Shown here piece after piece: positions 23,104 through 47,769 of a stretch of DNA of 64,000 bases. The position numbers and the translations under genes were made by a program. The stretch covers positions 48,488 through 112,487 of the forward strand of contig DASZRT010000032.1 of the NCBI GenBank assembly GCA_035549075.1, written 5' to 3'. Source of the DNA: Polyangia bacterium (lineage in GTDB: Bacteria > Myxococcota_A > Polyangia > Fen-1088). The number at the start of each line of letters is the position of its first letter. Positions within the stretch are counted from its first letter, which is position 1. The notes below the pieces were generated by a model that did no database searches, was not told where the DNA came from, and saw only the letters and a program-made list of their open reading frames with translations.

Positions 23104-23598
23104 GTGAGCTCTCCCACGGCGTCTTCGATCGTCGAGACCGACGCGCGCCACCGGCGCGGCATCGGCGTCGGCGCGTTCCTGCTCGCGATCGCGACGGTGG
23201 GCGCGGTCGCGCACGTCGGCGTGCGCGGGCAGGGCATCGAGGTCGCCTACGCGCTGGGCCGCGAGAAGCAGATCAACACGAAGCTCGAAGAGGAGCGGCG
23301 CCGCCTCAACATCGAGATCGGCATGCTCAAGGATCCCGTGCGCGTCGTGAGCTTCGCGCGCGACAAGCTCAAGATGGGCCCGCCCGCGCCGGCCGACATC
23401 GTGCGCCTCGTGCCGGGGCAGGTGCTGGGCGCGCCGCCCGCCGTGACCGCGCCGGCCGCGCCGAAGCGCGCGCCGCGCAGGCCGGCCGCCGCGAGGCCCG
23501 TGGTCGCGAAGCCCGTCAAGGTCGAGGCGAAGGCCGCGCCCGCATCGGAAGATGCGCCGGCCGCCGACGAGGCGCCGCGAACGGACGGTGACGAGTGA
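23104..23598 (+). CDS. ftsL: cell division protein FtsL-like
   Basis: Position between rsmH and ftsI. A single TM (GVGAFLLAIATVGAV) followed by a coiled coil, with a Pro/Ala-rich C-terminus. GTG start. Confidence 0.6.
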   Translation: MSSPTASSIVETDARHRRGIGVGAFLLAIATVGAVAHVGVRGQGIEVAYALGREKQINTKLEEERRRLNIEIGMLKDPVRVVSFARDKLKMGPPAPADIVRLVPGQVLGAPPAVTAPAAPKRAPRRPAAARPVVAKPVKVEAKAAPASEDAPAADEAPRTDGDE

Positions 23599-27229: not shown

Positions 27230-28659
27230 ACGCGCCCGCGTCGCACGCGTTCGACTTCGCGGCGCGCGCCATGCGCGGGGTGATCATCCAGAAAGGAACG
27301 CGTGGCGACGCGTTCGCGGGCGGCGCGTCCGACTCGCGCGAGGTGAAGGCAGGCGCGATCTTCTTCGCGTTCCCGGGCGAGCGCGTCGACGGCTTCGCGT
27401 TCGCGGCGCAGGCGGCGGCGAACGGCGCGGCAGGCGTCGTCGTCGCGCGCGGGCGCGGCGTGCCCGCGGGCTGCGAAGCGCTCACGGTCATCGAGGTCGA
27501 CGACGCGCGCCTCGCGATGGGCGATCTCACGCGCGCGGTGCGCGCACAATTCGGCGGCAAGGTCGTCGGCGTCACGGGCTCGAACGGCAAGACGACGACG
27601 AAGGAGCTGGTCGCGGCCGCGCTCGCGCCCATGGGGGACGTGCTGCGCACGCCGGCTAGCCTCAACACCGACGTCGGCTTGCCGCTCACCGTGCTCGGCG
27701 CGACGGGGCGCGAGGCGGCGTGGGTGCTGGAGATGGCGATGCGCGGGCGCGGCGAGATCGCCTACCTCGCCGACATCGCGTCGCCGCACGTCGGCGTCAT
27801 CACCAACGTCGGCGGCGCGCACCTCGAGCGCCTCGGGACGATCGAAGAGGTCGCGCGCGCCAAGGGCGAGCTGTTCGCGGGCCTCGGGCCCGACGCGGTC
27901 GCGGTGCTGCCTGCGGGCGATCCGCTCGTCGAGCCGCAGGCGGCGCACATCCCGCGCGCGCGTCGCGTGACGTTCGACGGCGGCGTCGCGGGTTCGAAGC
28001 CCGACGTGCGCGTGCTCGAGCTTCTGCCCGCGGGCGCCGCGGGCTCCGTCGTGCGCTACGCCGTGGGTGATCTCCCGGTCGTTGCCCGGCTGCCGCTCGC
28101 GGGCCTTCACAACGCGAAGAACGGCGCCGCCGCGCTCGCCGTCGCGCGCGCTCTCGGCGTGTCCGCACCCGAGGCAGCTCTCGCGCTCGAAAAAGTCGCG
28201 CTGCCGCCGCACCGTTCAGCCGCCGTTCCGGCCGGCGGTCGCGTCGTGCTCGACGACTGCTACAACGCCAACCCCGATTCGATGAAGGCCGCGCTCGCCT
28301 CGGTCGTCGCGTCGGCGACGCCCGCGCGCGCCTTCGCGATCCTGGGCGACATGAAAGAAGTCGGTTCACATTTGGCCGAGTCCGAGGCGCTCCACCGCGA
28401 GGTCGGGCGCGCCGCGGGCCAACGCCTCGCCGGGCTCGTCGCGATGGGTGCGCTCGCTGATGCGCTGATCGCGGGCGCGCGTGACGCGGGCCTGCCCGCC
28501 GACAGAGCCGTCGCCGCCGCGACGCCCGAAGAGGCCGCGGCGCGCGCCGCCGCCTGGACGGCGCCTGGCGATTGGATCCTCGTCAAAGCTTCCCGTGGCA
28601 TGAAACTCGAGCGCGCCGTCGACGCGCTCGTCGCAACCCTCTCGTCGGGGGCCAGATAA
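27226..28659 (+). CDS. murF: UDP-N-acetylmuramoyl-tripeptide--D-alanyl-D-alanine ligase
   Basis: VTGSNGKTTTKEL P-loop. GTGA overlap with murE. Confidence 0.9.
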   Translation: MNAPASHAFDFAARAMRGVIIQKGTRGDAFAGGASDSREVKAGAIFFAFPGERVDGFAFAAQAAANGAAGVVVARGRGVPAGCEALTVIEVDDARLAMGDLTRAVRAQFGGKVVGVTGSNGKTTTKELVAAALAPMGDVLRTPASLNTDVGLPLTVLGATGREAAWVLEMAMRGRGEIAYLADIASPHVGVITNVGGAHLERLGTIEEVARAKGELFAGLGPDAVAVLPAGDPLVEPQAAHIPRARRVTFDGGVAGSKPDVRVLELLPAGAAGSVVRYAVGDLPVVARLPLAGLHNAKNGAAALAVARALGVSAPEAALALEKVALPPHRSAAVPAGGRVVLDDCYNANPDSMKAALASVVASATPARAFAILGDMKEVGSHLAESEALHREVGRAAGQRLAGLVAMGALADALIAGARDAGLPADRAVAAATPEEAAARAAAWTAPGDWILVKASRGMKLERAVDALVATLSSGAR

Positions 28660-28663
28660 CGAG

Positions 28664-29776
28664 ATGCTCTTTCACCTCTTCAACGCGCTCCGCGAGACCA
28701 TCCCGGGCGCCAACGTCTTTCGCTACGTCTCGACGCGCATCGCGCTCGCGACGCTGACGTCGTTGCTCATCACGTTCATCGTCGCGCCGTGGTTCATCCG
28801 CCGGGCGCGCGCGCGTCAGCTGGGCGAGGTCATCCGCGAGGACGGCCCCGCGGGCCACGCCAGCAAGCGAGGCACGCCGACGATGGGCGGCGCCCTCATC
28901 ATCTTGGCCCTCGTGGCGGCGACCGTGCTGTGGTGCGACCTGCGCAGCACGCTGGTTTGGCTCGCGCTGTTCGTCACCGTCGGCTACGGCGTCATCGGCT
29001 TCGTCGACGACTACATCAAGATCGTCAAGAAAAACAAAAAAGGCTTGCCGGGGCGCGTGAAGCTCTTGGGCCAGCTGATCATCGGCGGCGTCGCCGCGGC
29101 CTGGCTCTACGCGACCGACGCGCTGCCGCCCGAGGTTCGCCTCCACGTCGCGCTGCCGCTCGTGAACTTCCACCACGCGCACCTCACGCTGCCGCTCGTG
29201 GCGTTCGTCGCCTTCGGCGTCTTCGTGCTCATGGCGGAGTCGAACGCCGTCAACCTCACCGACGGCCTCGACGGCCTCGCGATCGGCCCCGTCATCATCT
29301 GCTCGTTCACGCTGCTGCTGCTCGCCTACGCGGCGGGCACGACGCTGCGCAACTTCAACATCGCCGACTACCTGGGCATGCCACACGTGCCGGGCACGGG
29401 CGAGCTGGCCGTGTTCTGCGGCGCCATGGGCGGCGCCGGCATCGGCTTTCTCTGGTTCAACACGCACCCGGCGCAGGTCTTCATGGGCGACGTCGGCGCC
29501 CTCGCGCTCGGCGGCGCCATCGGCTTCGTGGGCCTCGCCACCAAGACCGAGATGTCGCTGCCCATCATCGGCGGCGTCTTCGTGGCCGAGGCCGTCAGTG
29601 ACATCATCCAGGTGGCCTACTACAAGCGCACGAAGAAGCGCGTCTTCTTGATGGCGCCCATCCACCACCACTTCGAGAAGCTGGGCTGGCCCGAGTCGCG
29701 CATCGTGGTGCGTTTCTGGATCGTCTCGTTCGCCTGCGCGATCCTGGGCCTCGTCGTCACGCTCAAAGTCCGCTGA
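28664..29776 (+). CDS. mraY: phospho-N-acetylmuramoyl-pentapeptide-transferase
   Basis: Polytopic membrane protein with MraY-family motifs (NAVNLTDGLDGLA, PTMGG). Confidence 0.9.
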   Translation: MLFHLFNALRETIPGANVFRYVSTRIALATLTSLLITFIVAPWFIRRARARQLGEVIREDGPAGHASKRGTPTMGGALIILALVAATVLWCDLRSTLVWLALFVTVGYGVIGFVDDYIKIVKKNKKGLPGRVKLLGQLIIGGVAAAWLYATDALPPEVRLHVALPLVNFHHAHLTLPLVAFVAFGVFVLMAESNAVNLTDGLDGLAIGPVIICSFTLLLLAYAAGTTLRNFNIADYLGMPHVPGTGELAVFCGAMGGAGIGFLWFNTHPAQVFMGDVGALALGGAIGFVGLATKTEMSLPIIGGVFVAEAVSDIIQVAYYKRTKKRVFLMAPIHHHFEKLGWPESRIVVRFWIVSFACAILGLVVTLKVR

Positions 29777-29784
29777 AACCAGGG

Positions 29785-31158
29785 ATGCCGCCCGAGCTCA
29801 AAGGAAAGCGCGTTCTCGTCGTCGGTCTCGGGCGCTCCGGGACGGCGGTCGCGATCCTGTGCGCGGCCCACGGCGCCGTCGTCACCGTGACCGACAAGCG
29901 CGGCATCGACGTGCTCGGGCCCGCGCTCGCCGAGCTGCCGCGCAACGTCGCCGTCGAGATCGGCGGCCACGAGACCGAGACCTTCCTCGCGACCGACCTC
30001 ATCGTCTTGTCGCCGGGCGTGCCCGAGATCCCCGAGCTGAAGGCGGCGCGCGCCGCGGGCGTCGCCGTCACGGGTGAGATGGAGCTCGCCTCGCGCTTCA
30101 TCGAGGCACCCATCATCGCCATCACGGGCACGAACGGAAAGTCGACGACGACGACGCTCGCGGGCGCGATGACGATGGCCAGCGGGCGGCCCACGTTCGT
30201 GGGCGGCAACCTCGGCGACCCGCTCGCGCTCGCCGTGGGCACGCCCGCGGGCGACGCCGGCGGCGCGTGCGTCGTCGAGGTGTCGAGCTTCCAGCTCGAG
30301 ACGACGCAGACCTTCCACCCGCGCGTCGCCGTGCTGCTCAACATCACGGCTGATCACCTCGATCGCTACGTCGACCTCGACGACTACGCGCGCACGAAGG
30401 GGCGCATCTTCGCGGCGCAGGCGTCGTCGGACTTCGCCGTCGTCAACCTCGACGACCCGCTGGCCGTGAAGCAGACCGAGGGCATCCGCGCGCGTCGGCT
30501 CGGCTTCTCGCTCGAGCAGCGCCTGTCCGAAGGCGCGTGGCTCGACGGCGAGGAGCTCGTCGTGCGCCTGCCGGGCGCGCGCACCGAGGCGTACCCGACA
30601 ACGGTGCCCGCGCTCGTGGGCCGCCACAACCAGGCCAACGCGCTCGCGGCGCTGCTCGCGAGCCGCCTCGCGGGCGCGACCCACGCCGAGGCGCTGCGCG
30701 CCCTCAACGAGTTCCAGCCGCTCGCGCACCGCATGGAGCTCGTCGCCAACGTCGGCGGCGTCATGTTCTACGACGACTCGAAGGGCACGAACGTCGGCGC
30801 CGTCGTCGCGGCGCTCGACGGCTTCCCGCGGCCCGTCGTGCTCATCGCCGGCGGGCGCGACAAGGGGGGAGACTACGCGCCGCTCGCCGAGGCGATGCGC
30901 CGCGTGGGCCGCGCCGCCGTGCTCATCGGCGAGGCCGCGGACAAGATCGAGGCGGCGTTCCGCGGCGTCGTGCCCGTCTCGCGCGCGGCGACGATGGAGG
31001 CCGCCGTCGGCGAGGCGACGCGGCTCGCCGAGCCGGGCGACGCCGTCGTGCTGTCGCCGGCCTGCTCGAGCTTCGACATGTTCCGCGACTACGCGCACCG
31101 CGCGCAGGTGTTCCGCGCCGCCGTCGAGGCCGTCGTGCAGAAAGAGCAGGGCGCGTGA
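29785..31158 (+). CDS. murD: UDP-N-acetylmuramoylalanine--D-glutamate ligase
   Basis: N-terminal Rossmann VVGLGRSG and Mur ligase P-loop ITGTNGKSTTTTL. Confidence 0.9.
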   Translation: MPPELKGKRVLVVGLGRSGTAVAILCAAHGAVVTVTDKRGIDVLGPALAELPRNVAVEIGGHETETFLATDLIVLSPGVPEIPELKAARAAGVAVTGEMELASRFIEAPIIAITGTNGKSTTTTLAGAMTMASGRPTFVGGNLGDPLALAVGTPAGDAGGACVVEVSSFQLETTQTFHPRVAVLLNITADHLDRYVDLDDYARTKGRIFAAQASSDFAVVNLDDPLAVKQTEGIRARRLGFSLEQRLSEGAWLDGEELVVRLPGARTEAYPTTVPALVGRHNQANALAALLASRLAGATHAEALRALNEFQPLAHRMELVANVGGVMFYDDSKGTNVGAVVAALDGFPRPVVLIAGGRDKGGDYAPLAEAMRRVGRAAVLIGEAADKIEAAFRGVVPVSRAATMEAAVGEATRLAEPGDAVVLSPACSSFDMFRDYAHRAQVFRAAVEAVVQKEQGA

Positions 31159-32594
31159 GGACGACCCGGGTCGCTCCGACGACGCGCTCGACGCGCGCGA
31201 GCCGCCGCGAGGCCCTCGCGTCGACGGCCATCACGCCCGCGTCGCGCCGCCTGCCGACGCCCGAGCGCGAGCCGCGCCGCTGGCCCGCGCTCGAGAAGCT
31301 GCGCGCGCGCTGGGCCGCGCTCATGACCAAGCTCGCGCGCGCCTTCGACGGCTCGCCGCACATCCGGCCCAGCGAGGTCGGCGTCGATCGCGTCCTCGTC
31401 GGCACCGTGCTCGCGCTGTGCGCGTTCGGCATCGTCATGGTCTATTCGTCGGGCGCCGTGTTCGCGGCCAAGAAGTACGGCGACTCGGCCTACTTCCTCA
31501 AGCGCGAGGTCATCTACGCGACGCTCGGCCTGGTCGCGATGTCGTTCGCGGCGCGCTTCGACTACGCCCACTACCGGCGCATCGCCTACCCGCTGCTGTT
31601 CGCGAGCATCCTCTTCCTCGCCGTCGTCTTGAAGATCGGCTCACGCGCGGGCGGCGCCATCCGCTGGTTCCGCTTGGGCCCGCTGTCGTTCCAGCCCAGC
31701 GAGCTCGCGAAGTTCGCGCTCGCCGTCTACCTCGCGTCGCTGCTGGCGCGTCAGGCCGAGAAGGTGAAGGTCTTCTCGATCGGCTTCGCGCCGCCGCTGC
31801 TCGTCACGGGCGTGATGATGGGCCTGCTGCTCAAGCAGCCGGACCTCGGCACGGCCGTGATCTTCGGCGTCGTCGCGCTCGGCCTGCTGTGCGTCGCCGG
31901 CACGCGCACGAGCTACCTCATCCTCGCCGTGCTCGTGGCCGCGCCCGCGGGCTGGAAGTTCATCGTGTCGACGCCGTTCCGCATGCGCCGCATGCTGGCC
32001 TTCCTAGATCCGTGGGCCTTCCGCCGCGACGTCGGCTACCAGATCACCGAGTCGCTCATCAGCGTCGGCTCGGGCGGCACGACGGGTCTCGGCCTCGGCG
32101 ACGGCCGGCAGAAGCTCTTCTTCCTGCCCGAAGCGCACACCGACTTCATCCTCTCGATCGTGGGCGAAGAGCTGGGCCTCATCGGCATCGTGTGCGTCGT
32201 GCTCGGCTTCTCGATCCTCGTGTGGCGCGGGCTGCGCGCGGCGTTCCGGGCGCGCGACGTGTTCGGCTGCTACCTCGCCTTCGGCATCACGGCGATGTTC
32301 GGCCTGCAGGCGCTCGTCAACATCGGCGTCGTGCTCGGCTCGCTGCCGACGAAGGGCCTGCCGCTGCCGTTCATCAGCTACGGCGGCACGTCGCTCGTCG
32401 TGAGCCTCTTCATGGCGGGCGTGCTCGCCAACATCTCGGCGCGCAACCCCGAGCCGGGCGAGGGCCTCGAGGGCCTGCTCGCCGAGGTGCGCGCGCGCGC
32501 CCGCAAGGCGCGCAACCGCCGCGCCGAGGGCGGCCCAAAGATCATCGTCGAGCTCGACGACGGCCCGCGCGGTCCCGAGCCCACCGCCTCGTGA
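31155..32594 (+). CDS. ftsW: SEDS-family peptidoglycan glycosyltransferase
   Basis: Ten-TM SEDS topology. Start assigned to the GTG overlapping the murD stop (GTGA); the alternative internal ATG is at about 31322. Confidence 0.85.
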   Translation: MRTTRVAPTTRSTRASRREALASTAITPASRRLPTPEREPRRWPALEKLRARWAALMTKLARAFDGSPHIRPSEVGVDRVLVGTVLALCAFGIVMVYSSGAVFAAKKYGDSAYFLKREVIYATLGLVAMSFAARFDYAHYRRIAYPLLFASILFLAVVLKIGSRAGGAIRWFRLGPLSFQPSELAKFALAVYLASLLARQAEKVKVFSIGFAPPLLVTGVMMGLLLKQPDLGTAVIFGVVALGLLCVAGTRTSYLILAVLVAAPAGWKFIVSTPFRMRRMLAFLDPWAFRRDVGYQITESLISVGSGGTTGLGLGDGRQKLFFLPEAHTDFILSIVGEELGLIGIVCVVLGFSILVWRGLRAAFRARDVFGCYLAFGITAMFGLQALVNIGVVLGSLPTKGLPLPFISYGGTSLVVSLFMAGVLANISARNPEPGEGLEGLLAEVRARARKARNRRAEGGPKIIVELDDGPRGPEPTAS

Positions 32595-33703
32595 TGACCG
32601 CCGCCGCGCCTCGCCCCCTTCGTGTCCTCATCGCCGGCGGCGGCACGGGCGGGCATTTGTATCCGGGCATCGCGCTCGCCGAGGCGCTCACATCGTCGGG
32701 CGGAGGCGAAGTCTTGTTCGTCGGCACGGCGAAAGGTCTCGAGACGAAGCTCGTTCCCGAGGCGGGCTTTCCGCTCGAGCTCATGGACGTCACGGGCCTC
32801 AAGCGCACGGGGCTGATGGCGCTCGTGCGTGGCCTCGCGCGGTTGCCCGGCGCGTTCTTCCAGGCGCGCGCGATCCTGCGGCGGTTCCGGCCCGATCTCG
32901 TCGTCGGCGTCGGCGGCTACGCGTCGGGCCCCCTCGTCTTCGCGGCCGCGCTGTCGGGCTACCCGACGGCGATCCAAGAGCAGAACAGCAAGCCTGGCTT
33001 CACGAACCGCGTGCTCGGTCGCGTCGTGCGCCGCGTGTTCGTCGCCTTCGAAGAGGCGAAGCGCTCGTTCTCAGCGCGCAAGACGCGCCTCTTCGGCAAC
33101 CCGGTGCGCCGGCGCTTCCTCGAAAAGGTCGCGCGCGCGGGCGCGACGCCGCCCGCCCCCACGAAGTCGATCCTCGTGCTCGGCGGCAGCCAGGGCTCGC
33201 ACGCCGTCAACGAGCTGCTCTCGACGACGATCCAGGTGCTCAAGGCGCGCGACGTGTTGCCGCCCGTCGTGCACCAGACGGGGCCGGCCGAAGAGGTCCG
33301 CATGAACCTCTACTACGAGGCGCTCGGCCTGTCCGACAAGGTCACCGTGCGCGCGTTCATCGACGACATGCCGGCGGCGCTCGCCGACGCCGCGCTCGTC
33401 GTGGCGCGCGCGGGCGCGCTCACGCTCGCCGAGCTGGCCATCATGGGGCGCCCCGCGATCCTCGTGCCGCTGCCGACGGCCACCGACGATCACCAGACGC
33501 GCAACGCGCTCGAGTTCGCGCACGCGGGCGCGGCCGTCGTCGTGCCGCAATACGAAACGGCCGCCACGCAGCTCGCCGACATCATCGTCGCTCTGTTCAA
33601 CGAGCCGGGCCGCCTCGAAAACATGGGCGAGGCCATGCGCTCGCTCGCGAAGCCGGCGGCGACCGAAGAGATCGTCGCCGAGCTGCGCTCGCTCGTGAAG
33701 TAG
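32594..33703 (+). CDS. murG: UDP-N-acetylglucosamine--N-acetylmuramyl-(pentapeptide) pyrophosphoryl-undecaprenol N-acetylglucosamine transferase
   Basis: LIAGGGTGGHLYPGIALAE N-terminal motif. GT28 C-terminal domain. Confidence 0.9.
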   Translation: MTAAAPRPLRVLIAGGGTGGHLYPGIALAEALTSSGGGEVLFVGTAKGLETKLVPEAGFPLELMDVTGLKRTGLMALVRGLARLPGAFFQARAILRRFRPDLVVGVGGYASGPLVFAAALSGYPTAIQEQNSKPGFTNRVLGRVVRRVFVAFEEAKRSFSARKTRLFGNPVRRRFLEKVARAGATPPAPTKSILVLGGSQGSHAVNELLSTTIQVLKARDVLPPVVHQTGPAEEVRMNLYYEALGLSDKVTVRAFIDDMPAALADAALVVARAGALTLAELAIMGRPAILVPLPTATDDHQTRNALEFAHAGAAVVVPQYETAATQLADIIVALFNEPGRLENMGEAMRSLAKPAATEEIVAELRSLVK

Positions 33704-33709
33704 CGCGGT

Positions 33710-36217
33710 TCAGTACATGCGGAAGCGGTAGCCGAGCGAGAAGCGCAGGCCCCAGTTGCCGTCGACGAGGGCGTGCGGGTTGTCGTGCTGCGACGACGCG
33801 ACCTGTGTGCAGCGGTTGTTGTTGGCGCAGTCGTCGAAGGGATAGAAACTCGCGACGAGGTCGAAGGTGAGGCGCTGGAAGAACGCCGCTCCGAAGATCA
33901 GCTCGGGGCCTTCGCGTTGCAGCAAGAGGCCGTCGAACGTGCTGAGCCTATCGATGGCCCAACCGCCGCCGAAGTGCAGCTGCACCAGAGACTGAAACGT
34001 ATTGCCCGCGCAGCGCTGCAGCTGCAGCTCGTCGGTGAGGTGCACCGCGCCTCCGTACGTGAAGGCGAGCGAGCGCCCTTCGCCGACCGGGTCGTAGTCC
34101 TGGGTCGCGTGCACGCCCGTGATGCGCAGCTCGACATCGGCCATGAGGTGCAGCTCGCGCGGCATGCGGTCCCACGGCACGCGATGCGCGGCGCTGAACG
34201 AGAGGCCACGATCACTCACGAACGCCAGGTCGAGCGTCATCGTCGGTGGCTGGTAGACGTAGGCGAAGTTGAGCGCCGCCTTGGCGAGATCGCCGACGAC
34301 GAGGCGGCCAGGGACGTCGAGCAACGGCTGCGCCGTCGTCGTGCGGTGCACGATGACCTGGAGGTCGTCGCGGATGGCGAGATCGACGGTGCCGGCGGTC
34401 GCGGGCAAGTGGTGGTACTTGAGGTCGCGGTACACGTAGGGCGCGGGCGCGTCGTTGGTGGTCGGGCCGGGCGCCTCGCCCAGCGCGCGCAGGAAAGTTT
34501 CCTGCTCGCCGGTGATCGTCGACGACAGCGACGGCGCTTGCTTCTCGCGCCAGGCGAGCGTCGCTTCGCTCGCGTAGGCGAGCGCCTCGACGTTGCGGCG
34601 GAAGGCGTCGCCGTCGGGTAGTCCCGTCCCCACGGCGGCGCACGCGGCCGGCGCGCCCGTGCCCGGCGCGCCGAAGCGCCGCGCGCGGTAGGCCATGAGG
34701 CAGTCGAGCTCGGGCGCGTTCTCGAAGGCGGGACCTGCGCCCGTCGCGCGCATCACCTGGAACGCGAGCGACGTCTGCGCGAGGTTTTGCCAGGCGTCGA
34801 CCATGCCCGCGTAGAAGTCGTAGACGCGAAAGTCGCCCTCGGCGAAGGCGAGGAACTCCATGAGGTACGCGCCGGCGACGGGCTCTTGCCGTGGCGGGCT
34901 CTCGAGCTCTTGCAGCAAGCCCGGCTCGCGTTCGAGCACGTCGAGCAGCGCGACCTCGAACGAAGTGCTCATGAAGTCACCCGCGAAGGTGCTCCACGTG
35001 TCGAGGAACGTTCCGCGCGACGGTTCCTCGGCGCGCTCGTTGTCCTTCGGGTCGATCGGGCGCGACACGGTGACGTCCGGATCCTGCACGATGTAGCGGG
35101 TGGGTGTCTTTGGATCGCGACCTTCGGCCAACAAGCGCCAGCGTCGCATTTCGACGGCGAGGCCCACGGGCCGATCGTCGAAGACGCCGCCATCCGTGTA
35201 CCAGCCGTCGTCGTGCGGGGCCCGCGGGTCGTCGGTGAGCAGGTGCAACCAACGCGGCGGGAACGCAAACGAGAACGCCGACGAGGCTGCGAGCGTCTTC
35301 GTGACCGAATCGACGTCGTACGATTCGAGTCGGCGCAGCTCGAGCTCGAGCAGATCGTGGCTCGGATCGTTGGGCGGCGGCTCGAGGGGCCGCAGCGTCG
35401 GCGCGGCCTCGCCGCTCGCCTTCGTGAGCGAGAACGTCAGCTTCTCCGTCTGCACGGGCAACACGAGGCCCACGCCGTCGAGCGGTTGGATCTGCCGGGC
35501 GTGCACGCGCGTCGTCGTGAGGCCCATATCGATCCGGCACGCGTCGCTCCACTTCGTCTTCTTCCACTCTCGGCTGAGGTAGTCGGCCGAGGCGTCGATG
35601 GGCTTCGTCGAGAGCAGCCCATCGCGTTTGACGCCGTCGGCGTCGATGAGCTCCTTCTCGCCCACGGGGACCCAGACGTTCCAGAACAAGCTCTCGCGCG
35701 GGCGTGGGTTGGGCGCCTGGCAGGCCGTCATCGCCGAGACGAAGGCGTTGATCGAGCCCGACGAGGCGCCCGTGACGAGCGCGAGCGGCGCCGTGCCCTC
35801 GGCGGGTTTCCAGTCGCGCTTGGTCGCGGCGGCGCGCGCGCCGGCGCGCGGCTCGAGCGCGCGCAGCTCGCTGAAGGCCGCCAGCAGGTAATAGAGGTAG
35901 CCGCCCTGGTAGTTGCCGAGGCTCACGGCGCCCGAGATGCTGAGCGCGAGCGGGCGCGACAGCTCCTCGTCGAGCAGCGCGATCTCGTCGGGGCTCGCGG
36001 CGGCGTCGTCGCCGCCGAGCCACGCCGCGAGGTGATGCACCGTCCGACCGTCCCAAGGCGGCGCATCTTTGCCGCGGATGACGGTGCCCCGCGCGGCGTG
36101 GTGATCGGCGATGGCGGCCAGCGCGGCCCGGTCGTCGGGCGCGTGAGGCGCCGCGCGCGCCGTGCCGGAGAGTCCGACCATCAGCCCGAAGAGTGCGACG
36201 CGGCCTCGTCTCGACAC
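33710..36217 (-). CDS. patatin-like phospholipase with C-terminal outer-membrane beta-barrel-like domain (PlpD/type Vd-like candidate)
   Basis: Signal peptide, a Gly-rich oxyanion region (LALSISGAVSLGNYQGG), a GxSxG nucleophile (VTGASSGSINAF) and the DGG aspartate (WYTDGGVFDD). The C-terminus ends ...LRFSLGYRFRMY, an aromatic-terminated OMP-like strand. Confidence 0.55.
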   Translation of the reverse strand: MSRRGRVALFGLMVGLSGTARAAPHAPDDRAALAAIADHHAARGTVIRGKDAPPWDGRTVHHLAAWLGGDDAAASPDEIALLDEELSRPLALSISGAVSLGNYQGGYLYYLLAAFSELRALEPRAGARAAATKRDWKPAEGTAPLALVTGASSGSINAFVSAMTACQAPNPRPRESLFWNVWVPVGEKELIDADGVKRDGLLSTKPIDASADYLSREWKKTKWSDACRIDMGLTTTRVHARQIQPLDGVGLVLPVQTEKLTFSLTKASGEAAPTLRPLEPPPNDPSHDLLELELRRLESYDVDSVTKTLAASSAFSFAFPPRWLHLLTDDPRAPHDDGWYTDGGVFDDRPVGLAVEMRRWRLLAEGRDPKTPTRYIVQDPDVTVSRPIDPKDNERAEEPSRGTFLDTWSTFAGDFMSTSFEVALLDVLEREPGLLQELESPPRQEPVAGAYLMEFLAFAEGDFRVYDFYAGMVDAWQNLAQTSLAFQVMRATGAGPAFENAPELDCLMAYRARRFGAPGTGAPAACAAVGTGLPDGDAFRRNVEALAYASEATLAWREKQAPSLSSTITGEQETFLRALGEAPGPTTNDAPAPYVYRDLKYHHLPATAGTVDLAIRDDLQVIVHRTTTAQPLLDVPGRLVVGDLAKAALNFAYVYQPPTMTLDLAFVSDRGLSFSAAHRVPWDRMPRELHLMADVELRITGVHATQDYDPVGEGRSLAFTYGGAVHLTDELQLQRCAGNTFQSLVQLHFGGGWAIDRLSTFDGLLLQREGPELIFGAAFFQRLTFDLVASFYPFDDCANNNRCTQVASSQHDNPHALVDGNWGLRFSLGYRFRMY

Positions 36218-36274
36218 GCGCCGACCGTAGCGCGGGCCGCGCGCGCCTCAAAGAAAGGACCTTCGGCGGGATGC

Positions 36275-36907
36275 TTACGGCGCCCGCCCGGCGGCCCGCG
36301 CGCCGACGAGCGCGAGATCGCGCGCGAGCAGCTCGCGCAGCTCGCGCCGGCGCTCGGGCGTGGGCGCGCGCAGCGCCGCCGACGGGTGAATCGTCACGAC
36401 GACGTCGGGCGCGGGCGCGCCGAGCTCACGCGCGAGCGGAAACACCTGGCCGCGATCGCGCAGGACGCGCACGCTCGGGCCCAGCAGCGAGCCGGCCGCC
36501 GTCGCGCCGAGCGCGGCGACGACGCGCGGCCGCACGAGCCGGAGCTCGTCGTCGAGCCACTGACGGCAGGCCGCCGCCTCGCGCGCGCTCGGCTTCTCGT
36601 GCAGGCGGCGCTTGCCGCGCTCGACGAACTTGAAGTGCTTCACGGCGTTGGTGACGTAAACGCTCGCGCGCGGCAGGCCCGCCAGGGCGAGCGCCTCGTC
36701 GAGCAGCGCGCCCGCCGGCCCCACGAACGGGTGGCCGCGGCGATCCTCTTCGTCGCCGGGTTGCTCACCCACGAGCATGACGGCCGCTCGGGGCGGGCCC
36801 TCGCCGAACACGGCCTGCGTCGCCGCCGCGTACAGCGGGCAAGCGCGGCACGTGGCGCAGGCCGCGGCCGCTTGTGCGAGCGATGCGGAGGGCGCGCCCG
36901 CCGGCAT
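36275..36907 (-). CDS. family 4 uracil-DNA glycosylase (4Fe-4S type)
   Basis: CxxC...C, GEGP, VMLVGEQPGxxED, PFVGPAGxLLD, VYVTNAVKH, and HPSA. Start placed at internal Met MPAGAP. The longer ORF has an Arg-rich N-terminal artefact. Confidence 0.8.
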   Translation of the reverse strand: MPAGAPSASLAQAAAACATCRACPLYAAATQAVFGEGPPRAAVMLVGEQPGDEEDRRGHPFVGPAGALLDEALALAGLPRASVYVTNAVKHFKFVERGKRRLHEKPSAREAAACRQWLDDELRLVRPRVVAALGATAAGSLLGPSVRVLRDRGQVFPLARELGAPAPDVVVTIHPSAALRAPTPERRRELRELLARDLALVGARAAGRAP

Positions 36908-36915
36908 CACGGCCT

Positions 36916-38256
36916 CTAGGGCGGCGCGGCCTCGATGCGCCAGATGCAGTTGCCGACGTCGTCGCTCACGAGCAGGCCGCCGTCGCCGTCGACGGCGATG
37001 CCCACGGGGCGGCCCCACGCCTCGCCGTCGGCGTTCGCGAAGCCCGTCATGAAGTCCTCGTAGCCGCCGAGCGCCCGGCCTTTGTCATCGACGGGAATGC
37101 GCACGACCTCGTAGCCGGCCAGGGCGCTGCGGTTCCACGAGCCGTGCTGGGCCGCGAAGATGTTGCCGTTGTACGCGGCCGGGAATTGCTCGCCGTCGTA
37201 GAAGACGAGCTGCATCGAGGCCGCGTGCGGCTCGACCAGCACGTCGGGCACGATGACCTTCGACGCGAGCTCGGCGTGCTTGCCGCCGAGGCGCGGGTCG
37301 GCGTGGCCGCCGATGTAGAAGTACGGCCAGCCGTAGAAGCCGCCGTCGACGACGCGCGTGACGTAGTCGGGCACGAGCTCGTCGCCCAGCTCGTCGCGCT
37401 CGTTGACCGACGCCCACAGCGCGCCGTCGCGCGGCGAGATCGCGAGGCCGACGGCGTTGCGGATGCCCGACGCGTAGACGCGGCGATCTTTGCCGTCATT
37501 GTTGCCATCGATGGTCATCTCGAGGATGTCGGCGCGCTCTTTCTCGCCGGGGTGGTCGTCGGGATCGTCCACATTCGAAAATGACCCGACGGACACGTAG
37601 AGCTTCTTGCCGTCGGGCGAGATCGCGAGGTCGCGCGTCCAGTGGCCGCCGCCGCGGAGCAGGCCGCCGCCCGGCAGGTCGGCGATCTTCGTGGGCGCGC
37701 CGCGCGCCTTGAGATCGCCGTAGTAGTAGGGGAAGCGGAGCACGGCGTCGGTGTCGCCGACGTAGAGCGCCTGCGGCCGCTTGCCCGGCGGCCAGAACGC
37801 GAGGCCGAACGGCTTCTCGAGATCGGAGGCGAACGTCTCGATCTGCGCGGCGCGGCCGTCCTTGCCGACGCCGCGCAAGACGCGCACGCGGCCCGACCAG
37901 CTCTCGCTCACGAAGACGTCGGCGTTGGGGGCGACGCGCAGCGCGCGCGGGCGCTCGAGGCCCTCGGCGTAGAGCGAGACGCGGAAGCCGCGCGGCACCT
38001 GCGGCCACGCTTTTTCGGGGCGCGGCACGACGTGCGGCGAGCGATCCGCCGAGCGCGTCGCAAACGGCTTCGGCAGCGGATCGGCCGCGATCTTGTGCGC
38101 CGCGCCGGGCGTTTGCGCCGACGCGTCGTTCGCGCGCTGCCGCGCCGAGCTCTTGAGCTTCGCGGCGGCGAGGCCCCCGGCGAGCGCGAGCACGCCGACG
38201 GCGACGGTGACGACGCGCGAGGAGATCCGCCCGGCCATGATCTTGAAGCTACTCAC
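36916..38256 (-). CDS. PQQ-dependent sugar dehydrogenase (soluble aldose/sorbosone dehydrogenase family)
   Basis: N-terminal TM/signal, then a beta-propeller with motifs typical of the sorbosone dehydrogenase / YliI family. GTG start. Confidence 0.75.
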   Translation of the reverse strand: MSSFKIMAGRISSRVVTVAVGVLALAGGLAAAKLKSSARQRANDASAQTPGAAHKIAADPLPKPFATRSADRSPHVVPRPEKAWPQVPRGFRVSLYAEGLERPRALRVAPNADVFVSESWSGRVRVLRGVGKDGRAAQIETFASDLEKPFGLAFWPPGKRPQALYVGDTDAVLRFPYYYGDLKARGAPTKIADLPGGGLLRGGGHWTRDLAISPDGKKLYVSVGSFSNVDDPDDHPGEKERADILEMTIDGNNDGKDRRVYASGIRNAVGLAISPRDGALWASVNERDELGDELVPDYVTRVVDGGFYGWPYFYIGGHADPRLGGKHAELASKVIVPDVLVEPHAASMQLVFYDGEQFPAAYNGNIFAAQHGSWNRSALAGYEVVRIPVDDKGRALGGYEDFMTGFANADGEAWGRPVGIAVDGDGGLLVSDDVGNCIWRIEAAPP

Positions 38257-38316
38257 GCGGCGCGCGATCGCAAGCTATCCGTTGACGCGCGCCCGCGCGC
38301 CGTCGAAAGTGCGCGC

Positions 38317-39681
38317 ATGTTTCGCAAGCGCGACGTCGCCATCCACTTCGTCGGCATCGGCGGCATCGGCATGTCGGGCATCGCCGAGGTGTTGCTCGAC
38401 CTCGGGTATCCGGTGTCGGGCTCCGACGTGAAGGAGAGCGACGTCACGCGGCGGCTCACGTCGCTGGGCGCGCGCGTCACCGTCGGCCACCGCGCCGAGA
38501 ACGTCGCCGCCGCCGACGTCGTCGTCGTGTCGAGCGCCGTCAAGGCCGACAACCCCGAGGTCGCGGCGGCGCGCGCGCGCGACGTGCCCGTGATCCCGCG
38601 CGCCGAGATGCTGGGCGAGCTCATGCGCGTCAAGGACGGCGTCGCCGTCGCGGGCAGCCACGGCAAGACGACGACGACGACGATGATCGCGACCATCCTC
38701 GCGCGCGCCGGGCTCGATCCCACCGTCGTCATCGGCGGCAAGGCGCGCGCCTTCGGCTCGAACGCGCGCCTCGGCGGCGGCGAGCTGCTCGTCGCCGAGG
38801 CTGACGAGAGCGACGGCTCGTTTCGCCACCTGTTGCCGATGGTCGCGGTGGTCACCAACATCGATCGCGAGCACATGGACCACTTCGGGACGGAGGCGGC
38901 GCTCGAGGCGGCCTTCCTCGACTTCGCCGATCGCGTACCGTTTTACGGGCTCGTCGTCGTGGGCGCCGACAGCCCGCTCGCCGCGCGGCTGCCGCCGAAG
39001 CTCACGAAGCGCCACGTCACCTACGGCCTGCGCGCCGGCGACTACCGCGGCGAGATCGTCGACGCGCGCCCCGACGGCACGCGCTTCCGCATCCGCGTGC
39101 GCGGCGCCGAGCGCGGCGAGGCGCGCATTCGCATGCCCGGCGTGCACTACGCCGAAAACGCGCTCGCGGCGTTGTGCGTGGCGGACTTCCTCGGCGTTTC
39201 GTTCGCCGACACGTGCGGCGCGCTCGAGGCGTTCGAGGGCGTCGACCGGCGCTTCAGCGTGCGCGGCGAGGCGGGCGGCGTGCTCGTCGTCGACGACTAC
39301 GGCCACCACCCCACGGAGCTCGCGGCGACGATCGCGGCGGCGCGGCTGCACGGCCGGCGGTTGGTCGTCGCGTTTCAGCCGCACCGCTACTCGCGCACGA
39401 AGGACCTGATGGACGCGTTCGCGCCCGCGCTCGCCGGCGCCGACGAACTCGTGCTCACCGACATCTACGCCGCGGGCGAGGCGCCGCTCGCCGGGGTGAA
39501 CATCGAGGCGATGTTGGCGACGTTCCCGCGGGTCGGCGGGCGGAAGGTGTCGTACGCCCCGCGCGGCGAGCTGGTCGCGGCGTTGGTCGCCGCGGCGCGA
39601 CCGGGGGACCTGATCCTTTGTTTGGGCGCGGGCGACATCACGAATGCCGCGGCGGACGTGCTGGGGCGGCTGGGCAGATAG
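38317..39681 (+). CDS. murC: UDP-N-acetylmuramate--L-alanine ligase
   Basis: FVGIGGIGMSGIAE N-terminus. P-loop VAGSHGKTTTTTMIA. Confidence 0.9.
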   Translation: MFRKRDVAIHFVGIGGIGMSGIAEVLLDLGYPVSGSDVKESDVTRRLTSLGARVTVGHRAENVAAADVVVVSSAVKADNPEVAAARARDVPVIPRAEMLGELMRVKDGVAVAGSHGKTTTTTMIATILARAGLDPTVVIGGKARAFGSNARLGGGELLVAEADESDGSFRHLLPMVAVVTNIDREHMDHFGTEAALEAAFLDFADRVPFYGLVVVGADSPLAARLPPKLTKRHVTYGLRAGDYRGEIVDARPDGTRFRIRVRGAERGEARIRMPGVHYAENALAALCVADFLGVSFADTCGALEAFEGVDRRFSVRGEAGGVLVVDDYGHHPTELAATIAAARLHGRRLVVAFQPHRYSRTKDLMDAFAPALAGADELVLTDIYAAGEAPLAGVNIEAMLATFPRVGGRKVSYAPRGELVAALVAAARPGDLILCLGAGDITNAAADVLGRLGR

Positions 39682-39733
39682 TCCGTCTGTCGTTTTCTGG
39701 ACAGACGCCCGCGCTCGTCGTTCGATCGTGGGA

Positions 39734-40666
39734 ATGGGCGAGCCGCTGCCTCAACGCACGCGTGTGACCGCGGTCGAGGTGCCGCGGCGCGGGTTGTTGC
39801 GCCGGCGGTCGAACCGGCGCGTGCTCGTCGTGAAGCGCTCGCCGCTCGTGTGGTTCGGCGAGGTGGCCAAGGCGGTCGCGTCGCGGCTCGCCGTGCTCGG
39901 CAAGCTCGTCGTCGTGTGCGCGTTGGTCGCGGGCGCGGTCTACGGCGGGCGCGCGCTCGTGCGCCACGTCGTCGCGTCGCCGCGCTTCGACCTGCGCGAG
40001 ATCCGCGCCGACGCGACCCTGCACATCTCGCACGACGACGTCGTCGAGCTGTCGGGCCTCTCGCCGGGCGACCACCTGCTGGCGATCGACACCGACGCCG
40101 TCGCGGCGCGCGTCGCGGCGCACCCGTGGGTCGCGAGCGTGCGCGTGCGGCGCCAGCTGCCGTCGGCGCTCGCGATCGACGTCGTCGAGCGGCGCGCGGC
40201 GGCGACGGCGCTGCTCGGCACGCTGTACCTGCTCGACGAGACGGGCCGCCCGTTCAAGCGCGCGACGCTCGAGGAGGCCGACGGCCTACCCATCGTCACG
40301 GGCCTCTCGCGCGAGCAGTACACGCTGGCGCGCAACGCGAGCGAGGCCGCCTTCCGCGAGGGCCTGAGCCTCCTCGCCGCGTACCGCGCCGTCGATTCTC
40401 TGTCCGCCGCGCACGGTCCGTCGAGCCGCCCCGCGCTCTCGGAGATTCACATCGATCCGCGCGCGGGCTTCTCGCTCGTGTTCTACGACGGCGGCGGCGA
40501 AGTCTTGCTCGGCCGCGGCGATTGGGCCGGCAAGCTCGCGCGCCTCGACGAGATCCTGGGCGCGCTCGGCCCGCGCGGCGCGAGCGCGCTGCGGGCCGTG
40601 CACCTCGACGGCCCCACGCACGATCGAGTGACGGTGCGCCTCGCGGCGACGCCCTCACCCGGTTAG
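39734..40666 (+). CDS. ftsQ: cell division protein FtsQ/DivIB
   Basis: Single TM followed by a POTRA domain (FDLREIRADATLHISHDDVVELSGLSPGDHLLAIDTDAVAARVAAHPWVASVRV). Sits immediately after murC. Confidence 0.75.
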   Translation: MGEPLPQRTRVTAVEVPRRGLLRRRSNRRVLVVKRSPLVWFGEVAKAVASRLAVLGKLVVVCALVAGAVYGGRALVRHVVASPRFDLREIRADATLHISHDDVVELSGLSPGDHLLAIDTDAVAARVAAHPWVASVRVRRQLPSALAIDVVERRAAATALLGTLYLLDETGRPFKRATLEEADGLPIVTGLSREQYTLARNASEAAFREGLSLLAAYRAVDSLSAAHGPSSRPALSEIHIDPRAGFSLVFYDGGGEVLLGRGDWAGKLARLDEILGALGPRGASALRAVHLDGPTHDRVTVRLAATPSPG

Positions 40667-47703: not shown

Positions 47704-47769
47704 GGTGCTCCCGGATGCGGGTGAGGGCACAAACGGCTCAGGCGCCTAGCGGCGCGACGTCCGATCATT

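What the first reader, a model, noticed from the sequence alone, without database searches (positions are those of the whole stretch)
33710..36217. Patatin-like phospholipase fused to a putative outer-membrane barrel (PlpD/type Vd-like)
The N-terminal half carries a complete patatin catalytic apparatus: a Gly-rich oxyanion hole, a GASSG nucleophile elbow and the DGG aspartate, behind a signal peptide. The 835-aa protein ends with an aromatic-terminated beta-strand signature (GNWGLRFSLGYRFRMY), typical of proteins inserted by BAM. Patatin passenger plus C-terminal barrel is the architecture of type Vd autotransporters such as PlpD/FplA.
Basis: partly seen in the sequence, partly recalled or inferred. 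Interest (0 to 1): 0.55.

Follow-up and report, generated by a model that had tools for sequence, protein, structure and literature searches.

The report
Patatin lipase on small membrane barrel

Summary
The 835-aa ORF at 33710-36217 (-) is a real gene: GC3 is 0.91, there are about 30 full-length homologs, and the AF2 model has pLDDT 81.5 and pTM 0.82. The patatin domain is confirmed (Pfam PF01734, E 1.7e-9). Its GxSxG serine (S152) and DGG aspartate (D342) are invariant in 32 homologs, and a Sec-type signal peptide is present.

A conserved beta-signal, a variable hydrophobic face opposite a conserved polar face (p = 4e-5), and three conserved Cys pairs support an outer-membrane barrel. With an even number of strands, the enzyme should sit in the periplasm.

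The C-terminal module is found in at least 113 clusters (50% identity), and all ten checked carry a patatin domain. It is essentially restricted to Myxococcota. A Myxococcus xanthus homolog is probably MXAN_3780, which was detected in purified outer membrane.

This is a new variant of barrel-anchored patatin lipase, of moderate interest.

The parts
33710..36217 (-). Complete CDS of 835 codons plus a TGA stop. The start codon is GTG at 36217.
   Evidence: ORF listing. GC1/2/3 = 0.69/0.50/0.91. 38 homologs were found, about 30 of them full length.
36152..36217 (-). Predicted Sec signal peptide, residues 1-22 (VSRRGRVALFGLMVGLSGTARA | AP). There is no lipobox cysteine.
   Evidence: Read from the sequence. 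A hydrophobic N-terminus followed by A-x-A is conserved in complete homologs (columns 1-150). The twin arginine is not conserved, so the Sec route is more likely than Tat. No signal-peptide predictor was run.
35954..36148 (-). Family-specific N-terminal helical extension, residues 24-88, ahead of the patatin core.
   Evidence: AF2 helices at 27-39, 57-67 and 76-87. A37 and H40 are nearly invariant. No Pfam match.
35084..35950 (-). Patatin-like phospholipase domain, residues 90-378 (alpha/beta core plus a beta-hairpin insertion at 227-300).
35900..35932 (-). Gly-rich oxyanion-hole block GAVSLGNYQGG, residues 96-106.
   Evidence: G96, S99, G101, Y103 and G106 are invariant. It aligns to the start of the Pfam patatin profile. 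Translation checked.
35756..35770 (-). Nucleophile elbow GASSG, residues 150-154. S152 is the putative catalytic serine.
   Evidence: G150, S152 and G154 are invariant in 32 sequences. The motif is also kept in distant members and in the Myxococcaceae clade. Translation checked.
35186..35194 (-). DGG motif, residues 342-344. D342 is the putative catalytic aspartate of the Ser-Asp dyad.
   Evidence: D342, G343 and G344 are invariant. Translation checked.
34262..35008 (-). All-helical middle domain, residues 404-652, with the strongly conserved motif PVAGAYLMEFLAFAExDFRVFDFxxGMVDAW (residues 446-478; 34784-34882) and a conserved Cys pair C506/C526.
33713..34240 (-). C-terminal 8-stranded beta-barrel, residues 660-835. 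Strands: 660-667, 671-679, 689-706, 715-731, 745-760, 763-779, 783-791 and 822-834.
33755..33844 (-). Long loop between strands 7 and 8, residues 792-821. It would be extracellular under standard outer-membrane protein topology. It carries the conserved DDCAGNNRC motif (C797 and C803).
   Evidence: Both cysteines are conserved in the 27 close homologs. Distant members carry similar C-x5-C motifs. The disulfide and the loop's location are inferred.
33713..33739 (-). Beta-signal-like C-terminal motif SLGYRFRMY, residues 827-835. G829 is invariant.
   Evidence: G829 is invariant. The motif [S]xG[WYF]R[FW]x[hydrophobic] lies at or near the C-terminus of 72 family members, and many end exactly on an aromatic residue (..SLGWRFLY..SAGWRFLW..SMGLRFF).

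Best explanation
The gene encodes an outer-membrane-anchored patatin-like (phospho)lipase with an architecture not previously described: signal peptide, short helical extension, patatin domain with a Ser152-Asp342 dyad, a ~250-aa helical domain, and an 8-stranded OmpA/OprF-class beta-barrel.

Proposed pathway (inferred):
1. The precursor is exported by Sec and cleaved after A22.
2. Three conserved cysteine pairs are oxidised in the periplasm.
3. BAM recognises the C-terminal beta-signal (S-x-G-x-x-aromatic-x-hydrophobic) and inserts the 176-residue barrel into the outer membrane.

Outer-membrane barrels with an even number of strands have both ends in the periplasm, and an 8-stranded barrel has no usable pore. 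The ~630-residue patatin-plus-helical module therefore stays in the periplasm, tethered under the inner leaflet of the outer membrane. There it would hydrolyse acyl esters of (lyso)phospholipids, serving outer-membrane lipid turnover or remodelling. The barrel is an anchor, not a translocator. This is the role now proposed for the Omp85 barrel of PlpD, reached here with a different barrel.

Shown: the gene, the patatin fold and motifs, the 8-strand barrel prediction and its membrane-type conservation pattern, the absence of POTRA and Omp85, and the family distribution.

Inferred: membrane insertion, orientation, disulfides, substrate and physiological role.
For: - **Real, conserved gene:**
- **Patatin domain with an invariant dyad:**
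- **Confident full-length model** (pLDDT 81.5, pTM 0.82) with three domains.
- **Eight strands**, reproduced in a second run.
- **Membrane signature:** over 107 strand positions, the hydrophobic face (KD +1.72, 22% aromatic) is more variable (1.50 bits) than the Gly/Ala/Arg/Glu-rich face (0.93 bits); Mann-Whitney p = 3.7e-5.
- **Beta-signal** conserved at or near the C-terminus across 72 members.
- **Extracytoplasmic life:** a signal peptide and three conserved Cys pairs (C166/C227, C506/C526, C797/C803).
- **Obligate fusion:** the C-terminal module always follows a patatin domain (10 of 10 distant members; 113 clusters at E <= 1e-10).
- **M. xanthus link:** profile-profile homology (probability 100%, E 8.6e-52, 649 columns reaching into the barrel) to a Myxococcaceae clade that includes M. 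xanthus Q1D5W1. Patatin-like MXAN3780 and MXAN4295 were found by LC-MS/MS in purified M. xanthus outer membrane and classed as beta-barrel proteins (PMC3222651).
- **Precedent:** the PlpD PL-domain is periplasmic and is linked to membrane lipid composition (PMC11116518).
Against: - There is no experimental localisation or activity for this protein or its close clade.
- I could not read model coordinates, so barrel closure, which face points outward and the disulfide geometry rest on DSSP, fold matches and sequence statistics.
- Three of the four putative extracellular loops are very short (2-8 residues) and one periplasmic turn carries a helix (734-744). That is less typical of outer-membrane proteins.
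- In the close clade the beta-signal is followed by 1-2 non-aromatic residues.
- The M. xanthus homolog Q1D5W1 was also detected in culture supernatants (PMC5158114). That could mean release, or outer-membrane vesicles.
- The Q1D5W1 = MXAN_3780 equation is only inferred from accession order.
- The oxyanion block lacks the usual basic residue, so the substrate could differ from phospholipids.
- There is no conserved gene neighbourhood to hint at function.
Confidence: 0.6

Rival explanations
1. It is a genuine type Vd autotransporter (PL-Omp85, PlpD/FplA family). A POTRA domain and a 16-stranded Omp85 barrel would translocate or hold the patatin domain.
Against: - There is no POTRA or Omp85/Bac_surface_Ag hit in Pfam, even at E <= 10, in 12 members, and none in NCBIfam.
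- The same Pfam tool does detect the POTRA_1 domain of FtsQ in this window.
- The barrel region is only 176 aa with 8 strands, too short for 16 strands.
- The region between the patatin domain and the barrel is all-helical.
Confidence: 0.02
2. It is a surface-displayed or delivered lipase used against prey or non-kin cells. The barrel would anchor the protein in the outer membrane or in outer-membrane vesicles, and the patatin module would reach target membranes. That could happen by exposure on the cell surface (autotransporter-like, N-terminal passenger before a C-terminal barrel), or by vesicle fusion or outer-membrane exchange that implants the whole protein into another cell's outer membrane.
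For: - Myxococcota are predators that use vesicles and outer-membrane exchange.
- The M. xanthus homolog Q1D5W1 was found in secretomes (PMC5158114).
- The other outer-membrane patatin-like protein, MXAN_4295, rose 4.9- to 7.6-fold at colony boundaries between incompatible strains (PMC6627406).
- One homolog (P0004) lies directly downstream of tssF-tssG in a T6SS cluster.
- A helix (635-652) immediately precedes strand 1, as in type Va linkers.
Against: - An 8-stranded barrel has no pore able to pass or hold a polypeptide. Known autotransporter barrels have 12 strands, or 16 in types Vb and Vd.
- The patatin and helical domains contain conserved Cys pairs, and the model packs them together (pTM 0.82), so they would have to cross the membrane unfolded.
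- The T6SS adjacency appears in 1 of 8 loci examined.
- The protein has a Sec signal peptide, unlike T6SS effectors.
- MXAN_4295 was not shown here to belong to this family.
Confidence: 0.15
3. It is a soluble periplasmic or secreted lipase whose C-terminal domain is a soluble 8-stranded lipid-binding barrel (avidin, YceI or lipocalin-like). That barrel would bind the substrate or the product, not span the membrane.
Against: - Foldseek (3Di+AA) reports the domain's significant hits as outer-membrane barrels.
- Four strands are 16-18 residues long.
- The hydrophobic face is the variable one, and the Gly/Ala/charged face the conserved one. A soluble barrel core would show the opposite.
- A beta-signal is conserved at the C-terminus.
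- Patatin-like proteins, one of them probably the M. xanthus homolog (MXAN_3780), were recovered in purified outer membrane (PMC3222651).
Confidence: 0.1

Closest known systems
PlpD (Pseudomonas aeruginosa) and FplA (Fusobacterium nucleatum): PL-Omp85, 'type Vd'
   Different: This protein has no POTRA domain, and its barrel has 8 strands, not the 16 of Omp85. A 250-aa helical domain replaces the POTRA linker. Sequence identity is only about 16% in the patatin domain, and there is no detectable sequence relationship in the rest. It is therefore an independent fusion, not a family member.
8-stranded outer-membrane barrels: OmpA and OprF N-terminal domains, OmpX, Ail, NspA, OmpW, PagL, PagP, Thermus TtoA
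   Different: Domain order is inverted relative to OmpA and OprF: here the barrel is C-terminal and the periplasmic module N-terminal. The partner is a lipase, not a peptidoglycan-binding domain. Sequence identity is 7-16%, and there is no Pfam hit to OmpA_membrane, OMP_b-brl, Ail_Lom, OmpW or PagL. Unlike in PagP and PagL, the barrel itself is not predicted to be the enzyme.
CapV/CapE (CBASS patatin effectors) and potato patatin Pat17
   Different: They are cytoplasmic (or vacuolar) soluble enzymes with no signal peptide for export across a bacterial inner membrane, no barrel and no helical domain of this kind. CapV and CapE are activated by cyclic nucleotides. There is no PADLOC defence hit here.
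OMPLA/PldA (outer-membrane phospholipase A)
   Same: It is an outer-membrane-embedded phospholipase involved in outer-membrane lipid homeostasis, which is the functional niche proposed here. This comparison rests on general knowledge and on the PlpD paper's discussion.
   Different: OMPLA is a 12-stranded barrel whose Ser-His-Asn active site sits on the barrel exterior and acts on the outer leaflet after dimerisation. Here the catalytic unit is a separate patatin domain on the periplasmic side. There is no structural hit to OMPLA in the top lists.
Myxococcus xanthus Q1D5W1 (probably MXAN_3780) and its Myxococcaceae orthologs, annotated only as 'patatin-like phospholipase family protein'
   Same: It is homologous over patatin, helical domain and barrel (hhalign probability 100%, E 8.6e-52, 649 columns). 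It shares the motifs GGISLGAYQAG, GASAG, DGG and DFYRGMxDA, and ends ...LLTRW. MXAN3780 was detected in purified outer membrane and classed as a beta-barrel protein.
   Different: Identity is only about 26% over the N-terminal 440 residues. It lacks the C-x5-C loop of the barrel. It belongs to a different class of Myxococcota (Myxococcia, not Polyangia). No paper found here describes its domain architecture.

Membership tests
Patatin-like phospholipase superfamily (PF01734) | A match to the patatin profile above Pfam's gathering threshold | tested here: met
   38.6 bits against a 27.7-bit cutoff, E 1.7e-9, profile positions 1-190 of 191. All ten distant relatives tested also match.
Patatin-like phospholipase superfamily (PF01734) | A Ser-Asp catalytic dyad in GxSxG and DG[GA] motifs, plus a Gly-rich oxyanion block | tested here: met
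   GASSG at 150-154, DGG at 342-344 and GAVSLGNYQGG at 96-106. The key residues are invariant in 32 sequences. The oxyanion block lacks the usual Arg/Lys.
Patatin-like phospholipase superfamily (PF01734) | The patatin alpha/beta fold | tested here: met
Patatin-like phospholipase superfamily (PF01734) | Lipid acyl-hydrolase (phospholipase A or lysophospholipase) activity | not testable with these tools
   This needs an enzyme assay of the purified domain with S152A and D342A controls.
PL-Omp85 / type Vd (PlpD, FplA) | A POTRA domain between the patatin domain and the barrel | tested here: not met
   There is no POTRA family hit at E <= 1 for the full protein, or at E <= 10 for 12 C-terminal halves. 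Residues 404-652 are all-helical in the model. The FtsQ POTRA in the same window is detected by the same tool.
PL-Omp85 / type Vd (PlpD, FplA) | A 16-stranded Omp85-type (Bac_surface_Ag) beta-barrel | tested here: not met
PL-Omp85 / type Vd (PlpD, FplA) | An N-terminal patatin-like domain behind a signal peptide | tested here: met
PL-Omp85 / type Vd (PlpD, FplA) | Homodimer with a dynamic lid that swaps onto the barrel (PMC11116518) | not tested
   No multimer prediction or coordinate analysis was available.
Small (8-stranded) outer-membrane beta-barrels, OmpA/OmpX/OprF-N class | A closed antiparallel barrel of 8 strands with outer-membrane-barrel geometry | tested here: met
Small (8-stranded) outer-membrane beta-barrels, OmpA/OmpX/OprF-N class | A lipid-facing hydrophobic surface with aromatic residues, and a polar or small lumen | tested here: met
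   Face analysis: KD +1.72, 22% aromatic and variable, against KD -0.71, Gly/Ala/Arg/Glu-rich and conserved; p = 3.7e-5. Which face points outward is inferred from the conservation pattern, not seen in coordinates.
Small (8-stranded) outer-membrane beta-barrels, OmpA/OmpX/OprF-N class | A C-terminal beta-signal for BAM (polar-x-G-x-x-aromatic-x-aromatic/hydrophobic) | tested here: met
   S827-L-G829-Y-R-F832-R-M834, then Y835. G829 is invariant. The motif is conserved in 72 members, many of which end exactly on F, W or Y. In the close clade 1-2 extra residues follow it.
Small (8-stranded) outer-membrane beta-barrels, OmpA/OmpX/OprF-N class | Sequence membership of a curated outer-membrane barrel family (OmpA_membrane, OMP_b-brl, Ail_Lom, OmpW, PagL) | tested here: not met
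   No Pfam hit at E <= 10 in 12 members. No PDB sequence hit with either the protein or the profile. The resemblance is at the fold level only.
Small (8-stranded) outer-membrane beta-barrels, OmpA/OmpX/OprF-N class | Physical integration in the outer membrane | not testable with these tools
   The only support is indirect. M. xanthus MXAN3780, probably the homolog Q1D5W1, was found in purified outer membrane (PMC3222651).

The most novel reading that the evidence does not exclude
This is a second, independently evolved class of barrel-anchored patatin lipases: patatin, then a helical domain with no detected sequence or structural relatives, then an 8-stranded barrel. It is widespread in Myxococcota, including Myxococcus xanthus, and has gone unrecognised in domain databases. 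An 8-stranded barrel cannot secrete anything. Its existence would therefore be independent evolutionary support for the recent and still contested view that outer-membrane barrels fused to patatin domains (PlpD, 'type Vd') are anchors for periplasmic outer-membrane lipid-processing enzymes and not secretion devices.
Probability: 0.5. Interest if true: 0.55.

Novelty: new variant of a known kind. Interest (0 to 1): 0.45.

Why it matters
- **Annotation.** Reading 'patatin plus barrel' as type Vd would mis-annotate this family as a secretion system.
- **The type Vd debate.** If a lipase of the same superfamily has been fused twice to unrelated outer-membrane barrels, one of which cannot form a channel, the argument strengthens that such barrels tether the enzyme to the periplasmic face of the outer membrane. 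That in turn supports treating 'type Vd secretion' as outer-membrane lipid homeostasis.
- **A tractable model.** The M. xanthus homolog, probably MXAN_3780, makes localisation, lipidomics and predation or vesicle phenotypes directly testable.

Tried and rejected
- **NCBIfam and PDB sequence searches** gave nothing useful: NCBIfam scan, PDB search with the protein and with the family profile.
- **PADLOC defence models** gave no hit, so a CBASS/CapV-type defence role was dropped. The signal peptide also argues against it.
- **Re-modelling residues 400-835 alone** reproduced the barrel but degraded the helical domain (pLDDT 30-60). That model was used only for the barrel.
- **Conserved gene neighbourhood:** eight loci were compared (the window). 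No neighbour recurs beyond near-identical genomes. Operon-based inference was abandoned, and the single T6SS adjacency was treated as anecdotal.
- **Tat export** was considered because of the 'SRRGR' motif. It was rejected as the main route because the twin arginine is not conserved among homologs.
- **Lipoprotein anchoring** was rejected because there is no lipobox cysteine.
- **tRNA and Rfam scans** of the window found nothing.
- **Literature searches** for a described patatin plus 8-stranded-barrel architecture found none. The library is limited to open-access papers.
- **Direct confirmation that Q1D5W1 is MXAN_3780** failed. The link rests on UniProt accession order, using the Q1D6F1 = MXAN_3582 and Q1D4F3 = MXAN_4295 pairs and my own recollection that Q1D5Y4 and Q1D5Y1 are MXAN_3757 and MXAN_3760.
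Full report

Yes, with corrections. An uninterrupted ORF of 835 codons lies at exactly 33710-36217 on the minus strand. In this ~70% GC window long spurious ORFs are common, and two of them overlap the gene. The annotated frame has the codon-position signature of a real high-GC gene (GC1/2/3 = 0.69/0.50/0.91). The overlapping ORFs do not (GC3 0.74 and 0.54).

The translated N-terminus, VSRRGRVALFGLMVGLSGTARA|AP, has a basic n-region, a hydrophobic core and an A-x-A site. Pfam's Patatin model (PF01734) matches residues 92-354 over its full length (E 1.7e-9, 38.6 bits against a 27.7-bit cutoff).

A database search returned 38 relatives. About 30 are full length (800-860 aa, 45-60% identity), all from Polyangia or Myxococcales metagenome bins. 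One is 100% identical, annotated 'patatin-like phospholipase family protein [Polyangia bacterium]'. In a 32-sequence alignment G96, S99, G101, G106, G150, S152, G154, D342, G343 and G344 are invariant.

Two details of the observation need correcting:
- The C-terminal aromatic residue is peculiar to this protein within its close clade, whose other members end ...GYRFF(V/L)(D/N).
- The barrel is not 'residues ~400-835'.

**2. What is actually there?**

An AlphaFold2 model built on the 32-sequence alignment is confident (mean pLDDT 81.5, pTM 0.82). It divides the mature protein into four parts:

| Residues | Part |
|---|---|
| 24-88 | Short helical extension |
| 90-378 | Patatin alpha/beta domain |
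| 404-652 | All-helical domain |
| 660-834 | Eight long beta-strands (660-667, 671-679, 689-706, 715-731, 745-760, 763-779, 783-791, 822-834) |

A second, independent run on residues 400-835 with a 12-sequence alignment gave the same eight strands. The helical domain lost confidence there, which suggests it depends on packing against the patatin domain, although the shallower alignment may also contribute.

Fold searches agree with one another:
- **Foldseek against the PDB.** The patatin part matched CapV-like lipases (E about 1e-6). The C-terminal part matched Ail, PagL, NspA, OmpA-TM, OmpX, PagP, OprF-N and OmpW (probability about 1.0).

**3. Is the barrel a membrane barrel?**

| Face | Strand positions | Mean KD | Entropy (bits) | Character |
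|---|---|---|---|---|
| Hydrophobic | 55 | +1.72 | 1.50 | 22% aromatic; L/F/V/A interchange freely |
| Other | 52 | -0.71 | 0.93 | G 17%, A 12%, R 12%, plus T, E and D |

The difference in entropy is significant (Mann-Whitney p = 3.7e-5). A variable hydrophobic face with a conserved small or charged face is what a lipid-facing exterior and a packed polar lumen predict. A soluble barrel with a hydrophobic core predicts the opposite.

The last strand carries S827-L-G829-Y-R-F832-R-M834, which fits the BAM beta-signal pattern (polar-x-G-x-x-aromatic-x-hydrophobic). G829 is invariant. Across 72 family members that reach the end of the barrel, the motif [S]xG[WYF]R[FW]x is always at or within two residues of the C-terminus. 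Many distant members end exactly on an aromatic residue (..SLGWRFLY..SAGWRFLW..SMGWRFLF..SMGLRFF).

Six cysteines form three conserved pairs: C166/C227 in the patatin domain (invariant), C506/C526 in the helical domain, and C797/C803 in the 30-residue loop between strands 7 and 8, within the DDCAGNNRC motif. This is expected for a protein that folds outside the cytoplasm. The disulfides themselves are inferred.

**4. Family and distribution**

A profile of the C-terminal half (helical domain plus barrel) was searched against 1.84 billion cluster representatives. It found 266 proteins at E <= 1e-3, 113 at E <= 1e-10 and 30 at E <= 1e-30. Nearly all are 700-1100 aa long, with the module beginning 350-550 residues in. 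All ten distant members tested carry a Pfam patatin domain and nothing else. No Pfam model touches the C-terminal half, even at E <= 10. Public names are only 'patatin-like phospholipase family protein', 'RssA' or 'hypothetical'.

A scan of one genome per GTDB species found 18 species, all uncultured. Seventeen are titled Polyangia, Myxococcales, Myxococcota, Myxococcaceae, or only Deltaproteobacteria or 'proteobacterium'. One Bacteriovoracaceae bin gave a partial match.

A divergent hit from a Myxococcaceae bin (L017, 931 aa) led to a clade present in cultured Myxococcus xanthus, M. virescens, Corallococcus, Melittangium and Pyxidicoccus. Profile-profile comparison of the two clades gives probability 100%, E 8.6e-52, with 649 aligned columns running from the patatin domain through barrel strand 7. 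These proteins end ...LLTRW.

The DK1622 member is ABF87987.1, UniProt Q1D5W1. By UniProt accession order it should be MXAN_3780. This mapping is inferred, not verified. It rests on two known pairs (Q1D6F1 = MXAN_3582 and Q1D4F3 = MXAN_4295). It also rests on my recollection that Q1D5Y4 and Q1D5Y1, which appear, are MXAN_3757 and MXAN_3760.

Bhat et al. found MXAN3780 and a second patatin-like protein, MXAN4295, by LC-MS/MS in purified M. xanthus outer membrane and classified both as beta-barrel proteins (PMC3222651). Q1D5W1 was also seen in M. xanthus culture supernatants (PMC5158114). MXAN_4295 rose 4.9- to 7.6-fold at colony boundaries (PMC6627406).

**5. Genomic context**

In the window the gene converges on murG: the two stop codons are 6 bp apart. 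It follows a UDG-family gene (36275-37018) and a glucose/sorbosone-dehydrogenase-like gene (36916-38256) on the minus strand. These three genes interrupt an otherwise plus-strand dcw cluster: murE, murF, mraY, murD, (ftsW), murG, then murC and ftsQ.

None of this is conserved. Seven other loci have unrelated neighbours. One homolog sits just after tssF-tssG of a T6SS cluster. The gene behaves as a stand-alone unit, so context gives no functional lead.

**6. Most likely mechanism**

Shown:
- An exported patatin hydrolase with an intact, invariant Ser-Asp dyad.
- A fusion to a helical domain and to a predicted 8-stranded outer-membrane-type barrel with a beta-signal.

Inferred:
- Sec export, signal-peptide cleavage after A22, periplasmic disulfide formation and BAM-dependent insertion of the barrel.
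- All known outer-membrane barrels with an even strand count place both termini in the periplasm, and 8-stranded barrels have no translocation pore. The ~630-residue catalytic module should therefore remain periplasmic, held against the inner leaflet of the outer membrane, where it would deacylate (lyso)phospholipids.

This is the arrangement Hanson et al. demonstrated for PlpD. There the PL-domain is exclusively periplasmic and phospholipid levels change in a deletion strain, which led them to propose a role in outer-membrane lipid homeostasis (PMC11116518). I put 0.6 on this overall picture. Its components differ:

| Claim | Confidence |
|---|---|
| Not type Vd | ~0.95 |
| Patatin hydrolase | ~0.9 |
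| 8-stranded outer-membrane barrel | ~0.85 |
| Periplasmic orientation | ~0.7 |
| Lipid-homeostasis role | ~0.35 |

**7. Rivals**

- **True type Vd (0.02).** It fails both defining features.
- **Surface-exposed or delivered lipase for predation or kin conflict (0.15).** Myxobacterial biology, the secretome detection and the lone T6SS adjacency favour it. An 8-strand barrel offers no route across the membrane. Delivery by vesicle fusion or outer-membrane exchange, with the enzyme still periplasm-facing, remains possible and is compatible with the anchor model.

**8. Comparison with known systems, and novelty**

Functionally it looks like PlpD/FplA as now understood: a barrel-tethered periplasmic patatin lipase. 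It is not a member of that family, because both defining features were tested and not met (POTRA and the 16-strand Omp85 barrel).

Its barrel belongs, at the fold level only, to the OmpA/OprF-N/OmpX class. Domain order is inverted relative to OmpA. Its catalytic domain is nearest to CapV, CapE and patatin. I found no paper or database model describing this architecture. The only trace is the 2011 classification of the M. xanthus proteins as predicted beta-barrel outer-membrane proteins.

I therefore rate it a new variant of a known kind, of moderate interest (0.45). The enzyme class and the idea of barrel anchoring are known. An independent fusion to a non-translocating barrel bears directly on the type Vd debate, it defines two uncatalogued domains, and it has a genetically tractable representative.

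Noticed in passing
window 33710-38256 (- strand), within 23552-40666: Three minus-strand genes (the patatin-barrel gene, a UDG-family glycosylase at 36275-37018 and a glucose/sorbosone-dehydrogenase-like gene at 36916-38256) split an otherwise plus-strand dcw cell-wall cluster between murG and murC. The cluster runs murE, murF, mraY, murD, ftsW, murG, then murC and ftsQ. The patatin and murG stop codons are only 6 bp apart. The closest homolog (L003, 61% identity) does not share this position.
   Followed up: partly
window 36182-36217: The public annotation of the identical protein (P0001, 823 aa) starts 12 codons downstream, at M13. That start would remove the basic n-region and half of the hydrophobic core of the signal peptide. 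Homolog N-termini support the longer GTG start at 36217.
   Followed up: partly
homolog P0004 (JGI sample 3300047160, 70.6-kb contig; no DNA held): This 47%-identical homolog lies 46 bp downstream of tssG, on the same strand, at the end of a T6SS cluster (tssM, dotU, tssK, sciN, hcp, tssE, tssF, tssG). This was seen in one of eight loci. It may be coincidence or a clue to a conflict role.
   Followed up: partly
Myxococcus xanthus MXAN_4295 (UniProt Q1D4F3); not in the window: A second patatin-like protein was detected in purified M. xanthus outer membrane and rose 4.9- to 7.6-fold at colony boundaries. I did not establish whether it belongs to this 8-strand-barrel family or is a PL-Omp85.
   Followed up: no
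window 34784-34882 (residues 446-478): The motif PVAGAYLMEFLAFAExDFRVFDFxxGMVDAW at the start of the helical domain is the most widely conserved part of the C-terminal half. Many distant patatin proteins of 700-1100 aa match only these first ~80 profile positions. It may mark a broader accessory element of this patatin subfamily with different C-termini.
   Followed up: no
window 20001-22000, 46001-48000 and 50001-64000: GC content drops to 0.63-0.67 in these stretches, against 0.70-0.75 elsewhere in the window. They were not examined. No tRNA or Rfam family was found anywhere in the window.
   Followed up: no
window 36916-37018: As listed, the UDG-family ORF (36275-37018) and the dehydrogenase-like ORF (36916-38256) overlap by about 100 bp. 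The upstream GTG start of the UDG ORF is probably too long, because the Pfam match begins at residue 71.
   Followed up: no
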